Positions 6,859 through 63,135 of a stretch of DNA of 64,000 nt are shown piece by piece; the first letter of the stretch is position 1; every line of letters starts with the position of its first letter. The stretch is from Scenedesmus sp. PABB004. Taxonomy: Eukaryota. Below the pieces are notes generated by a model. That model did no database searches and was not told where the DNA came from. It saw nothing but the letters and a program-made list of their open reading frames with translations. Where the stretch lies: the NCBI GenBank assembly GCA_014905635.1, contig CM026547.1, forward strand, positions 3,410,001-3,474,000, read 5' to 3'. Made by a program: the position numbers and the translations under genes.

Positions 6859-9518
6859 TCAACCCTTGAAGCTTGCATACTCGTGGGAGGCGTCGTAGGG
6901 CGTCCAGATGATCTTGCTGGGGTCAACCTGCGAGCAGCGGCGGGGACGCGCGCACCTCAGGCAGCGCGCCCGGGCCCGGTTGCGCGCGGTTGGGCAACCG
7001 CCGCCCTGCAGGCGCGCCCGCCGCGCGCGCGCGCCTGCAGGCCCCAGCTGCCGGCGGCGCGCAGGTGCTCGTCCAGCAGCTTGGGCGCGGCGACCAGCAC
7101 GTGCTGGCCCTTCTGGTGCTGCACCAGCCCCAGGTGCTGCGGGGGTGGCGGGCGCGGCGGGGCGCCGCACACGTCACCGCGGGCCGGCGGCTGGGGCGAG
7201 GGGGGCCTGCGCAGCGCCGCGCCCCACGGCCGCACGCCCGCGCAGCACACAGCGCGGGCGCGCGCCTGCATGGTGTAGAGTATGTCGTCGGGCTTGATCG
7301 CTGTGAGCTCGCTGAGCTCCTTGATGCTCAGCGTGCCCTCGCGCTCCTTGAGCACCGGCATGAGCACGCGCGTCCAGTAGCTCGTGTAGCTCATGCGCCC
7401 CAGGTCGCTCAGCGGGCGCTCCGGCGTGCCCACCTGCGCGCGCCGCGCGGCGTGAGCGGGGGCGGGGTCGGGCGGCGGCGCCGCGCGCCGGCGCGTCGCC
7501 GCCCGCGTCGCCACCCGTGCGTCGCCGCCCGCGCGGCGCGGCGGCGCGCGGCGCGGCGCGGCGGCGCACCTTGCCCTCGAGCTTTGAGAGCTCGTAGCTG
7601 AACGCGATGAGGAACTTGCCGTAGCCTTTCTTCTGGTAGCAGGGGAGCGTGAGGATGCAGGCAAGGTTGTACCCCTCCTCGCTGCTCTTCTCCTTGCTGA
7701 AGTAGCCCACGATGTGCGCGCCGCGCGCGTCGGTCTCGCACAGCACATAAAAGAGGAAGAGGTCGACGTCGTAGTAGAGCGTCTTGTGGTCCAGGAAGAG
7801 CTTGGCCAGGTAGCACAGGTTCTGGCAGTACTGCTTCTCCTTGCGCCCGTCGACCTGCGGCGGTTGGCGCGGCCGCGGCGGCGCGCGGCGCGGCGCGGCG
7901 GTTGGTCGGGCGCGGCGCGGCGGGTTGGCGCGCGGCGGTCGGGGCGCGGCGCGGCGGCGCGGGCGCGGGGCGCGTGTGGGGAGGGCGGTGGGGCGTCTGG
8001 GCGGGGGCGGGGGGTGTGTCTGCTCGCCTCAAACATGGAGATGTTGTCCTTGCGGTAGATCTCGTCGCCCGGCGGGTGGCGCAGGCGGCACTTGCCGAGG
8101 TGGCGCAGCAGCTGGCTGCGGCGCTTGAAGAAGTGGAGGCTGTACTCGCAAAAGTAGAGCTTCTGCGCGGGGAGGCGGGGAGGCGCGGGGGAGGGGCACA
8201 GCGGGGGCGGGGGCGGGGGCGGGGGCGTCAGGCGGCGCCGCGGCGGCGGAGGGAGCGGGCGGGCGGGCGGGCGCCGCCGCGGCGGCGCGGGCGTGGCGCG
8301 CAGCGCGCGCTGCGTGTCGCGCGCCTTGCAGTCCTTGTACTCTGGCGGGAAGGGGCTGAAGTACCAGGTGTCCATCTCGTGCATGCCGAGCTGCACCTCG
8401 TCGATGTTCTTCACCTGCGCGGCCGCCAGCCCGCGCGCGGCGCCGCGCAGACGGGCGGTCGGCGCGCGCGCTGCGCGCTGCCACGCTGCCCGGCGGCGCT
8501 GGCGCGCGCAGGCCGCGCAGGGCTCCCCATCTCTCCCTCCCCCATGTGCGCGCGCGCCGCGCCGCGCCTTGGTGAACTCCTCGTGCTCGCGCAGCTGCTG
8601 CGGGTCAAAGTCGCCGTGGTCCTCGTCGTCGCTCATCGGCTCCTCCACCTTCTTGCGCTTCCTGCGGCCAACCACCCACACAGCGGCGCCTCAGCAGCCG
8701 CGGCGCGCGCCCCCGCGCCGGCCCGTCGCCGGCCCTGCGCCGGCGCGCGCGCGCGCCACGCGCCCGGCCGCGCCGCCGCACTCACTTGCCGTCCGGGCCC
8801 ACCTCCTCCAGCACCTGCACCTCCAGCGTGTCCAGGTCAAAGTCGGCCGTGTTGACCCACTGGTCCATGCGCCGGTTCACTGCGCGGCGCGGCGCGGGGG
8901 GGGGGGGGGGGGGGGTGGGCGGGCGGCGCGCCGCCCGCGCGCCAGGCCGCCGCTGCTGCGCGCGGGCCGTGCGCGGCGGCGCGGGCGCGGTGTGGGTGCT
9001 CACTGCCGCTGAAGTGCACGTAGTACTCCCACGCCTGCGCGGGGTCGCCCGCTTGTGTGGGCTTGAGGTCGGGCTTCAGCCGCCGCTCGAGCAGCTTGCA
9101 GCGGTAAAACTCGCCGTCCTTCCAGCGGCAGCGCAGCCGGCTGTTCAGCTCCAGCGGCAGCACCACCTGGTCGCGCGGCACCAGGTTGGGCGGCGGCACC
9201 GACCCCGACGGCTCCGGCGCCGCGAGGCCGCCGCCGCTGCTGCCGCCCGCCGCCGCCGCGCCGGAGCTGCCGGCCGCCGTGACGTCGCTGGGCGCGGGGG
9301 CGCGCAGGCGCTTGCCGCCCTTGCCGCTCCCCTGCGGCGCACGGCGGGCGGGCGGCGGGGCGGCGTGTGCGCGGGGCGCGCGCTGCTGTCGCCGCCGCTG
9401 CTGCCCGCTCGCCGCCTGCGTGCGCGCCGCCGCGCACCTTGCCGCCGCCGACGGAGACCTGGGGCGGGGGCTCCTGGCCATCTTCAGGCGGCTTGCTGCT
9501 CGCCCGGCTGCCCGTCAT
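6859..9518 (-). CDS. HAM1: MYST-family histone acetyltransferase (HAM1/ESA1-like) with Tudor-knot/chromo-barrel
   Basis: Ten exons. [96 protein letters not shown]. Five of nine introns need GC donors. Confidence 0.95.
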
Positions 9519-9981
9519 GGCCGCACGCGCTGCGACCGCCGCTTCGCGGCGCGCCGCTTCAACACCGGCGCCCACCGGGCCCTGCTGGCCCGGCGCGTGG
9601 CCGGCCGGCGCTGCCGGAGAGTGTTTCCGGCCGGGTGGCGGCGCCCAGCTGGCGCCCTGCTGCCGCGACCGGGCGGAGCGGGCGGCGAACAGCTCAAAGC
9701 CCCCGGCGTGCGAGCCGCACGGGCGCTGGTCGTGCGTGGCGCGAGCGTGCAGTGCATCAGGCGCTGCGGTGCGGGCGCTGGCGCGCTGGCGGGCGCGGGC
9801 AGAGCCCGCGCGGGTGTCCTTTTGCACCCTGCGCCCTGCTCCAGCGACGTGAGCTCGCGGTGCCGGCTCCCGCTGCCCGCGAGACCACACTGCCGCACCC
9901 TGGGTGACCGCTGCCGCGCCAGCGCGCCGGCGCACCGGCCCGCCGCCCATCACTCGACCCGGCCGGCCCCTGGGGGCCCGA

Positions 9982-61611: not shown

Positions 61612-61970
61612 CACGTGACGGCGGCCCCGGCCGGCGGGCGCGCCAGGCGGCGGCGGTCGCGGCAGCAGTAGCAGCAGCAGCGGCGGCTTTGAGGGCTCTC
61701 GCCGGGCGCCGGGGAGCGTGACGAAGCGGGGGTGGCGTCGGCACTATCAGGCGGGGGCTCGCTGCGCGAGCGGGCAGAGCGCGTGGGCGCGGGCAGACCG
61801 GCGGCCGCTGTTCAGCAGCGTGCGAAGCCTGAGCGGCGTGGGCTGCTGCCGCCCGTAGCGTCCATCATAGCCGTCCCGTCCTGCCGCAGTACGGGCAAGC
61901 CTCTGCAGCTCCGGCGCCAGCAGCAGCGACAACAGCGGCGCGGCCGGCACGCGACGGCGGGCTCGGCGCG

Positions 61971-63135
61971 ATGGCCGCCGCCGCCGCGACCGCGGCCAAG
62001 GGCCTGGGCAAGCTGCAGCAGCGCAGCACGGCCCTCTTCGTGTGCGACCTGCAGGTGCGGCGGCGCCGGGGAGCGGCGGCGTCGGCAGCAGCAGCGGCGG
62101 CGGCAGCAGCAGCGGCAGCGGCGCACGCGCACCCGCACCCGCGCGTTGCGCCAGGAGCGCTTCCGGCCGGTGATCAGCGGCTTCCCCGCGGTCGTGGACA
62201 CCGCCCGGCGCATGATTCGGGGCGCCAACGTGCTGGGCCTGCCTATCATCACGACCGAGCAATACCCCAAGGCGCTCGGCAGCACGGTGCAGGAGGTGCG
62301 CCCCGGCCCGCCCCGCGCGCGCGCTGGCACCAGGGGCGGCCCGCCGGCGAGGTGAGGGCCACCCACACACCCACACACACACACACCCACGCACACACAC
62401 CCGCCGCGCAGCTCAAGGACGTGATGCAGCCCGGCAGCCCGCTGCTCGCCAAGACGCGTTTCTCGATGGTCACGCCCGAAGTCAGCCAGCTGCTGAAGCA
62501 GAAGCCCAGCATCTCGCAGGCGCGCCGCCGCCGCTGCTGCTGCTGCCGCCGCCGCCGCCGCTGCTGCTGCTCGCGGCGGCGGCGCCGCCGCCGGGCCGGC
62601 CGTGCCCGCGGCGCCGACGGGCGTGGCGCGCCGCGCGGGCGCAGGTGCTGCTGTGTGGCATTGAGACGCACGTGTGCGTGCTGCAGACGACGCTGGACCT
62701 GCTCGAGGGCGGGTACGGCCCGCCGACGGCCGCGCGTGGCTGTGCCAGCCGCGCAGCAGCCGCCCATTCGCACGCGCCTACGCGCCGCCGCCGCGGCGCA
62801 GGTACGAGGTCCACATCCTCGTCGACGGCGTGAGCAGCCAGCGCCTGCCCGACCGCGCGGTCGGCCTGCAGCGCGCCGCGCAGTCGGGCGCCTTCCTCGT
62901 CACCAGGTGCGGCCGTGCGCGGGCCACCAGCGCCGCGCGACCCGTGCGCCGCGCGCCGCTCGACGCGCGCCGCCGCCGCCGCCGCCGCCTGACGAGCGCG
63001 GCGCGCGTCGCGCGGCGCAGCGAGATGGCCCTGTTCCAGCTGATGGAGGACGCCAAGGCGGAGCACTTCAAGGAGATCAGCAAGCTGGTGCAGGAGCCGC
63101 GCATGGACTCGCTCGGCCTGCCCTCGGCGCTGTGA
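61971..63135 (+). CDS. Isochorismatase-domain protein ISOC1/ISOC2-like
   Basis: Six exons. LFVCDLQERF, TEQYPKALGSTV, KTRFSM, LCGIETHVCVLQTTLDLL, DGVSSQR, SEMALFQLMEDAK. Confidence 0.92.

What the first reader, a model, noticed from the sequence alone, without database searches (positions are those of the whole stretch)
7033..62521. Very high frequency of GC-AG introns
Seen: keeping conserved proteins in frame requires GC donors at 8567, 8324, 8027, 7265, 7034 (MYST, 5 of 9 introns), 15109, 15934, 16457, 18861, 29154, 35634, 37410, 43271, 53923, 51185, 50248, 49988, 49226, 54745, 56763 and 62520. That is about 21 of ~120 introns by manual count. All read GCG at +1 to +3 and 20 of 21 follow exonic AG, whereas GT donors (mostly GTGCG) tolerate other exon ends. 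One splits Walker A of the CHD ATPase (GDE|MGLGKT), so its position is tightly constrained. Known: GC-AG introns are usually about 1% of introns. Inference: GC pressure has converted donors wherever exonic AG compensates, and 5' splice-site recognition (U1, U5, U6, U1-C) may be adapted.
Basis: partly seen in the sequence, partly recalled or inferred. Interest (0 to 1): 0.72.

Follow-up and report, generated by a model that had tools for sequence, protein, structure and literature searches.

The report
Green alga with many GC-starting introns
In this extremely GC-rich green alga about one intron in five appears to start with GC instead of the usual GT, almost only where the exon ends in AG; this pattern is already known from other GC-rich algae, but is unusually strong here for a green alga.

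Summary
All 21 sites read GCG. A spliced aligner with no donor preference puts 12 of them exactly where homologous proteins require, two more fit profile or structure alignments, and an ab initio model recovers all 21. It is not local: Prp8 on another contig has 10 GC donors among 29 junctions where homology and model agree. A 600-kb census of G000 gives 161 GC of 836 confident introns (19%, 16-22%), while decoy GA/GG donors vanish. About 40% of exons ending in AG use GC; almost no others do. At four testable sites other algae have the same intron with GT, so these are GT>GC substitutions, not introners. U1, U2, U5 and U6 motifs are canonical. AG|GC donors have the same predicted U1 pairing as ordinary non-AG GT donors, which fits compensation plus GC bias better than an altered snRNA. 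High GC-AG rates are published for Emiliania (56-65%), pelagophytes (14-17%) and Micractinium (7%), so this is a new case of a known kind. No RNA junction evidence was available. Three look-ups found no earlier scan note on this.

The parts
6928..7034 (-). GC-AG intron, MYST acetyltransferase intron 9, phase 0 (WGLQ|VDPS)
   Evidence: blind spliced alignment
7137..7265 (-). GC-AG intron, MYST intron 8, phase 0
7855..8027 (-). GC-AG intron, MYST intron 6, phase 0 (SMFE|VDGR); same intron has GT in two homolog fragments
   Evidence: no in-phase GT alternative
8163..8324 (-). GC-AG intron, MYST intron 5, phase 0; position shared with two homolog fragments
8415..8567 (-). GC-AG intron, MYST intron 4, phase 0
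15109..15261 (+). GC-AG intron, GTPBP1/2-like GTPase, phase 0; same intron has GT in 11 homolog fragments
15934..16058 (+). GC-AG intron, GTPBP, phase 0
16457..16579 (+). GC-AG intron, GTPBP, phase 2
   Evidence: no in-phase GT alternative
18751..18861 (-). GC-AG intron, JmjC-domain gene, phase 0
   Evidence: ab initio only, loss 5.2; gene family
29003..29154 (-). GC-AG intron, membrane-protein gene, phase 0
   Evidence: ab initio only, loss 6.8
35634..35748 (+). GC-AG intron, HECT E3 ligase, phase 0
   Evidence: ab initio only, loss 6.6
37410..37501 (+). GC-AG intron inside the HECT domain, phase 0
   Evidence: Pfam positions 70 and 72 abut, weak hits; no in-phase GT alternative
43271..43378 (+). 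GC-AG intron, unnamed gene, phase 0
   Evidence: ab initio only, loss 7.2
49076..49226 (-). GC-AG intron, CHD ATPase (EGRQ|VLIF), phase 0
49875..49988 (-). GC-AG intron, CHD ATPase, phase 0
50094..50248 (-). GC-AG intron, CHD ATPase, phase 0; GT read-through in a Monoraphidium neglectum model
51073..51185 (-). GC-AG intron in CHD ATPase motif I (LGDE|MGLG), phase 0; position shared with many homolog fragments, GT in the one that shows the donor
   Evidence: ab initio only, loss 5.8
53672..53923 (-). GC-AG intron, CHD N-terminus, phase 2
   Evidence: ab initio only, loss 4.3
54646..54745 (-). GC-AG intron, enoyl-CoA hydratase (AUH-like), phase 0
   Evidence: exons abut without gap on PDB 3kqf (206/207) and Pfam ECH_1 (192/193)
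56618..56763 (-). GC-AG intron after GG (GG|GCGAG), cellulase-like gene, phase 1; the only non-AG case
   Evidence: ab initio, loss 5.2, no in-phase GT alternative; weak PDB match up to the last exon codon, E 0.032
62520..62644 (+). GC-AG intron, isochorismatase-family gene, phase 0
   Evidence: ab initio, loss 15.3; family

Best explanation
These are ordinary major (U2-type) introns at old positions whose donor changed GT>GC. The genome's strong bias to C over T (mutation or GC-biased gene conversion; not separable here) keeps producing +2 T>C changes. This alga's donors have already decayed to G|GTGCG, so its standard snRNAs routinely work with about four U1 base pairs. When the exon ends in AG (mostly CAG or AAG), the exonic pairs to U1, and probably to U5 loop 1, bring a GC donor to the same predicted pairing energy as a common non-AG GT donor. 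The change is then only mildly harmful and reaches about 40% of such sites. Without exonic AG it is removed. Choice of the right site probably leans on intron definition (short, ~120-nt, 87% GC introns ending in CAG). Shown: junction positions by homology, census, AG dependence, GT in homologs, standard snRNA motifs. Inferred: actual splicing at these sites, the pairing threshold, the U5 role, intron definition, and the population-genetic cause.
For: Blind homology junctions in MYST, GTPBP, CHD, Prp8. Census: 239 GC of 1104 calls; 161 of 836 at score loss >=5, block bootstrap 16.3-22.4%, GC present in 15 of 15 blocks; decoys fall to 4 of 836. GC after AG in 202 of 503, at high confidence 2 of 431 after other ends. 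Predicted U1 duplex median -4.5 kcal/mol for AG|GC, -4.5 for non-AG GT, -6.8 for AG|GT, -1.7 for non-AG GC. [quoted passage not shown] Homolog fragments read into the intron with Val (GT) at four GC sites, 15 rows. No clustering of GC donors by gene (P 0.16). snRNA motifs standard. +2C binds human U1 better than +2A (PMC4383343 passage), in line with GA decoys being rare.
Against: No RNA reads were seen, so splicing efficiency and intron retention are unknown. The motif is not sufficient: AGGCGCG occurs 163 times as donor and 152 times inside predicted exons, and Ala GCG codons after AG are not avoided (103 of 117 vs 88-94% elsewhere), whereas Val GTG after AG is (31 of 40; 0 of 8 before AG). 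Human GC donors have a stronger consensus elsewhere (PMC3167603 passage); here +4 is C in 88% and +6 is T in 8%, so intronic compensation is absent. Some GC-rich chlorophytes are annotated with very few non-canonical sites (Gonium 293 of 100,174; Monoraphidium neglectum 19 of 67,746), so GC content alone may not suffice, though those annotations may be GT-biased. Energies are nearest-neighbour estimates without pseudouridine. The census is ab initio on 1.5% of the genome and ignores UTR introns.
Confidence: 0.72

Rival explanations
1. The introns are real GT>GC conversions, but the high rate needs a lineage-specific change in spliceosomal proteins (U1-C, LUC7, Prp8, Prp28 or SR proteins) that relaxes checking of position +2.
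For: GC donors have only 4-5 predicted U1 pairs and no intronic compensation. Homolog fragments show 22 Val and no accepted Ala at AG-ending phase-0 donors, against 41% GC here. U1-C has Ala for Thr11, a backbone-contacting residue, and Ser at position 22 where the paper names Lys22. Prp8 differs from a distant-homolog consensus at 4 positions.
Against: Non-AG GT donors of the same predicted energy are the majority class, so no GC-specific change is needed. Ala substitutions at these U1-C residues had no growth effect in yeast (PMC4383343 passage citing Schwer and Shuman). I had no U1-C or Prp8 from close relatives to show that the changes are lineage-specific. GC content of the homolog fragments' genomes is unknown. 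One LUC7 locus and a METTL16-family gene are present, with no sign of expansion or loss.
Confidence: 0.18
2. Many GC-donor introns are poorly spliced or retained, and the high count reflects tolerated inefficiency rather than full function.
For: In Emiliania huxleyi the GC majority goes with pervasive intron retention, 478 of 535 inspected introns (PMC4028052 passage). GC donors splice more slowly in vitro (PMC3167603 passage).
Against: Essential genes carry many: 11 of 32 predicted Prp8 introns, 5 of 9 in MYST. No depletion in first, middle or last introns or in particular genes. This rival is compatible in part with the best explanation.
Confidence: 0.05
3. GC-AG introns are introner elements (transposon-made introns with GC donors), as reported in pelagophytes.
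For: Pelagomonas introners have both GT and GC donors (10.1101/2021.10.25.465678 passage). Donor GCGCG and acceptor CGCGCAG look like inverted ends.
Against: Only 2 of 202 GC introns have a long similar partner, vs 4 of 202 sampled GT introns; end complementarity is the same for own and swapped ends (8.46 vs 8.48); no excess target-site match. Four GC introns sit at positions shared with other algae that have GT.
Confidence: 0.02
4. Systematic base-calling or assembly error turned GT into GC after AG.
For: No raw reads could be checked.
Against: Inside exons, conserved Val after an AG-ending codon stays Val in 12 of 13 cases (two in the exact AG|GTGCG context); P 0.013 against a 40% error rate. 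301 AG|GT donors remain.
Confidence: 0.02
5. The +2 C is edited to U in the pre-mRNA before splicing.
For: None from my calls; it would restore a GT donor.
Against: It does not explain the AG dependence more simply than pairing does; GC donors are spliced unedited elsewhere (PMC3167603 passage).
Confidence: 0.01

Closest known systems
GC-AG-rich introns of pelagophytes (Aureococcus anophagefferens ~14-17%, Pelagomonas calceolata ~14%; 10.1101/2024.10.30.620910, passage)
   Same: Similar share of GC donors, AG acceptors, attributed by the authors to high genomic GC.
   Different: Intron-poor genomes where introners contribute GC donors. Here about 5-6 introns per gene, no introner signs, ancestral positions.
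Emiliania huxleyi, 56-65% GC donors, RT-PCR-checked (PMC4028052, passages)
   Same: GC donors, canonical acceptor, GC-pressure explanation, GT-only predictors mis-annotate.
   Different: Haptophyte, far higher share at lower genomic GC (65%), some GA donors. Here 19%, nearly confined to AG-ending exons, no sign of real GA donors.
Micractinium conductrix (8,057 of 114,347; 7.0%) and Chlorella sorokiniana (7,090 of 124,435; 5.7%) major non-canonical sites (PMC6310983 supplement file 8, rows)
   Same: Intron-rich, GC-rich green algae with raised GC-AG/AT-AC counts.
   Different: Trebouxiophyceae; about a third of the rate here. The table pools GC-AG with AT-AC. G000's nearest named homologs are Scenedesmaceae.
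Ordinary U2-type GC-AG introns of plants and mammals (1.2% across 121 plant genomes, PMC6310983; ~1% human, PMC3167603; passages)
   Same: Major spliceosome, compensation by a better match elsewhere in the donor.
   Different: About 16 times more frequent here, and compensation is almost only exonic; intronic +4 and +6 do not match U1.

Membership tests
U2-type GC-AG introns | GC at +1/+2 and AG at the 3' end, junction fixed independently of the motif | tested here: met
   blind alignments
U2-type GC-AG introns | Donor resembles the genome's own GT donors; major snRNAs present | tested here: met
   same +3G, +5G pattern; U1, U2, U4, U5, U6 found
U2-type GC-AG introns | Compensation by stronger exonic match | tested here: met
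   202 of 239 GC calls follow AG vs 301 of 827 GT
U2-type GC-AG introns | Compensation by stronger intronic match (+3 to +6), as in human GC sites | tested here: not met
   +4A 7%, +6T 8% in AG|GC donors; this is a tendency of human sites, not a strict definition
U2-type GC-AG introns | Spliced junction seen in RNA | not testable with these tools
   no RNA holder listed
Introner elements | Families of similar intron sequences | tested here: not met
   2 of 202 vs 4 of 202 control, within 600 kb only
Introner elements | Terminal inverted repeats and target-site duplication | tested here: not met
   no excess over swapped ends or GT introns
Introner elements | Lineage-specific intron positions | tested here: not met
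   five GC positions shared with homologs, four with GT visible; other positions untested
U12-type introns | Extended RTATCCT 5' consensus (motif recalled) | tested here: not met
   donor logos show GCGCG
U12-type introns | U11, U12, U4atac, U6atac genes | not tested
   not searched
Variant-snRNA spliceosome | U1 5' end, U5 loop 1 or U6 ACAGA box changed to fit GC donors | tested here: not met
   both U1 copies, U5 and U6 match the Rfam consensus at these motifs; DNA search finds no third U1; only 41 of 245 U1 candidates were scored

The most novel reading that the evidence does not exclude
A chlorophyte lineage has evolved, through spliceosomal proteins rather than snRNAs, a relaxed check of intron position +2, so that donors with only four or five U1 pairs and no intronic consensus are spliced constitutively and told apart from an equal number of identical exonic motifs by intron definition alone. 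It would be a natural system for finding what enforces GT in other eukaryotes, with lower-GC relatives carrying GT at the same introns.
Probability: 0.18. Interest if true: 0.72.

Novelty: new member of a known kind. Interest (0 to 1): 0.42.

Why it matters
It adds an independent, intron-rich green-algal case of high GC-AG use, about 19%, above the green-algal rows I read (7.0% at most among seven). Unlike the pelagophyte cases it can be polarised: the same introns have GT in other algae. That allows a direct test of whether GC donors spread by composition bias under a fixed pairing threshold or need an adapted spliceosome. The contrast between AG and non-AG exon ends gives a rough natural measure of the cost of +2C (log-odds about -2.3 to -2.7 vs -5 to -8). 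Practically, 90 of 193 intron-bearing predicted genes have at least one confident GC donor, so GT-only annotation would damage about half of the gene models.

Tried and rejected
RNA evidence: no RNA holder listed for window 6850-16750, so no reads were laid. Polarisation from genomic loci: 80 metagenome MYST loci held no close relative; only the GT intron at window 9003 was shared, and 16 well-anchored junctions gave 13 GT, 2 GC, 1 GA, the last three doubtful. Read-through rows dropped as unplaced or mis-modelled at GC sites: P0036, P0076, P0129, P0296, P0318, P0325, P0464 and P0335; P0335 begins with Ala but its preceding residues do not match the exon end. PDB tests of U1-C exon 2 and of the exon after 56763 found nothing useful. 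Pfam gave no family for 10 of 16 exon pieces. Cryptic-site avoidance of AG-GCG in exons was not found. GC use did not vary with GC3 tertile; it was lower in genes with high GC at codon positions 1-2 (43 of 137 vs 86 of 184) and in long genes, unexplained. The null in which called donors were set to GT gave 16 GC calls of 1105 with equal priors and 0 after retraining; it shows no drift from GT to nearby GC but does not measure false introns. Literature: searches listed no paper on GC-AG rates in Sphaeropleales (searches returned 0 papers); the library lacks most subscription papers and bioRxiv supplements were closed, so a genome report may state the rate. Earlier scan notes: none relevant.
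Full report
Setting. The window is 78.5% GC and lies on contig C1 of G000, 39.97 Mb in 80 contigs. The best-scoring named green-algal homologs of three window genes are from Scenedesmus and Tetradesmus, 92-99% identical over the query exons, so this is most likely a Scenedesmaceae-like chlorophyte.

The 21 sites. All read GCG, and 20 follow AG. 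I wrote a spliced protein-to-genome aligner in which donor dinucleotides can be given equal cost. With any donor allowed, homology alone gives the same MYST structure as GT+GC: 9 introns, 5 GC, score 1988, against 1700 for GT only and 1918 for GT with GA and GG decoys. GTPBP gives 3 GC of 9 (2245 vs 2169 and 2181). CHD gives the four claimed ATPase-domain sites, including LGDE|MGLG; its poorly conserved ends produce junk junctions and do not test 53923. The two enoyl-CoA hydratase exons around 54745 abut without a gap on PDB 3kqf and Pfam ECH_1, while the nearest in-phase GT sites are 57 nt upstream and 48 nt downstream. The HECT exons at 37410 abut within one profile position on weak hits. 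So 12 sites are fixed by blind alignment, 2 by abutment, and 7 rest on the gene model.

Beyond the window. I trained a generalized HMM on 600 kb of G000 (15 blocks, 7 contigs), seeded once with the 36 homology-based window introns and then retrained on the blocks alone. With GT, GC, GA and GG donors at equal prior and one matrix learned from GT sites, it called 774 GT, 259 GC, 45 GG and 27 GA of 1105. After fitting priors: 827, 239, 30 and 8 of 1104. It recovered 36 of 36 seed introns, which is not a fully independent test, and all 21 claimed sites among 127 window introns. Keeping calls whose loss on blocking is at least 5 leaves 161 GC, 671 GT and 4 decoys of 836; the AG|GC share stays at 18-19% from threshold 0 to 10 and is 4 of 29 at threshold 15. 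Block bootstrap gives 16.3-22.4%. As an independent check, Prp8 on C19 was predicted with 11 GC of 32 introns; blind alignment to distant homologs agreed at 29 of 32 junctions, 10 of them GC, and GT-only lost 479 points against GT+GC.

Anatomy. GC follows AG in 202 of 239 calls, and non-AG GC calls drop to 2 at high confidence. Among AG-ending exons 202 of 503 use GC: CAG 134 of 302, AAG 54 of 119, GAG 14 of 79. By phase the share is 153 of 371, 6 of 45 and 43 of 87. GC and GT donors share +3G and +5G; GC donors have C at +4 in 88%. Intron length (median 127 vs 117 nt), GC content and acceptor hardly differ. GC donors are not clustered by gene or position.

Origin. Many homologs are fragments called on genomic DNA and read past the exon end, so the next residue shows the donor: Val for GT, Ala for GC. 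At window 15109, 11 fragments read Val, one from Haematococcus; at 8027 two; at 51185 one; at 50248 one, from Monoraphidium neglectum. With seven more rows at two AG-ending GT sites, that is 22 Val and no accepted Ala; eight rows at GC sites were dropped as unplaced or mis-modelled, one of them starting with Ala. The fragments are not independent and mostly unnamed. GC introns show no repeat families, inverted ends or target-site excess in the sample. Conserved Val after AG inside exons stays Val in 12 of 13 cases, against a systematic sequencing error. The simplest reading is GT>GC substitution at old introns. C/T is 6.6 in intron cores, 9-13 in matching contexts and 19.7 at fourfold sites, but 0.9 at AG|GYGCG donors, so +2C is still selected against, mildly after AG and strongly otherwise.

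Machinery. Both U1 copies start AUACUUACCUGG, U5 has loop CGCCUUUUACUA, U6 has ACAGAGAAG, and U2 has GUGUAGUA. No third U1 was found. Predicted U1 pairing is -4.5 kcal/mol (median) for AG|GC, equal to non-AG GT donors, the largest class. [quoted passage not shown] This suggests one pairing floor, reached either by U at +2 or by exonic AG. Against a pure motif model, AGGCGCG is as common inside predicted exons as at donors and is not avoided, so context must decide. U1-C has Ala for Thr11; such changes were silent in yeast (PMC4383343 passage), and I could not compare close relatives. One LUC7 locus and a METTL16-family gene are present.

What is known. Of each paper I saw passages or supplement rows, not the whole text. 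Plants average 1.2% GC-AG (PMC6310983). Its supplement lists 7.0% major non-canonical sites for Micractinium and 5.7% for Chlorella sorokiniana, but under 2% for five other green algae. Emiliania has 56-65% GC donors, explained by GC content (PMC4028052). Aureococcus and Pelagomonas have 14-17%, likewise (10.1101/2024.10.30.620910), with introners contributing (10.1101/2021.10.25.465678). I found no report for Sphaeropleales in the searches named under Tried and rejected; the Raphidocelis genome passages shown did not mention donor types (PMC5966456, 12 of 16 places).

Verdict. The feature is very probably real (about 0.95 without RNA) and genome-wide at about 19%. The phenomenon and the GC-pressure explanation are published for other algae. 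New here are the lineage, the level for a green alga, the near-strict AG dependence, the GT state in homologs and the standard snRNAs. New member of a known kind; interest 0.42.

Noticed in passing
window 32131-33070 (+) and 39030-40073 (-): Two paralogous small membrane-protein genes in inverted orientation, with nearly identical last exons, flank the HECT ligase gene.
   Followed up: no
G000:C46 321585-327360, 893429-938360 and 1124544-1127652; G000:C77 372889-376120: snRNA genes cluster on C46: two identical inverted U1 copies 5.5 kb apart, two inverted U2 copies, U4 and U5 within 1 kb. U6 on C77 has a 5'-truncated copy 3 kb downstream.
   Followed up: partly
L146 (end of C1) and L147 (start of C61): The U1-C gene and its neighbour occur twice, at two contig ends; the L147 model is split. 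Probably an assembly overlap, possibly a real duplicate.
   Followed up: partly
600-kb sample of G000: Acceptors are CAG in about 98% of calls; intron cores hold only 7% T and 7% A, and TGAC/TAAC branch-like words occur in only 12-14% of introns, so 3' splice-site recognition is also unusual.
   Followed up: partly
L152-L153 (Prp8, G000:C19), predicted residue 1512: An intron lies one codon from a point where several unnamed Prp8 homologs carry an insertion starting with Cys and ending His-Asn, the pattern I recall for PRP8 inteins.
   Followed up: no
window 18410-18520, 28750-28800, 41450-41510, 56680-56720: Long GGC/GCC triplet runs inside introns.
   Followed up: no
window 51073-51185: Among CHD homolog fragments most have the intron before the Met of GDE-MGLGKT, but a second group appears to have it one codon later, a possible intron slide or parallel gain.
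   Followed up: no
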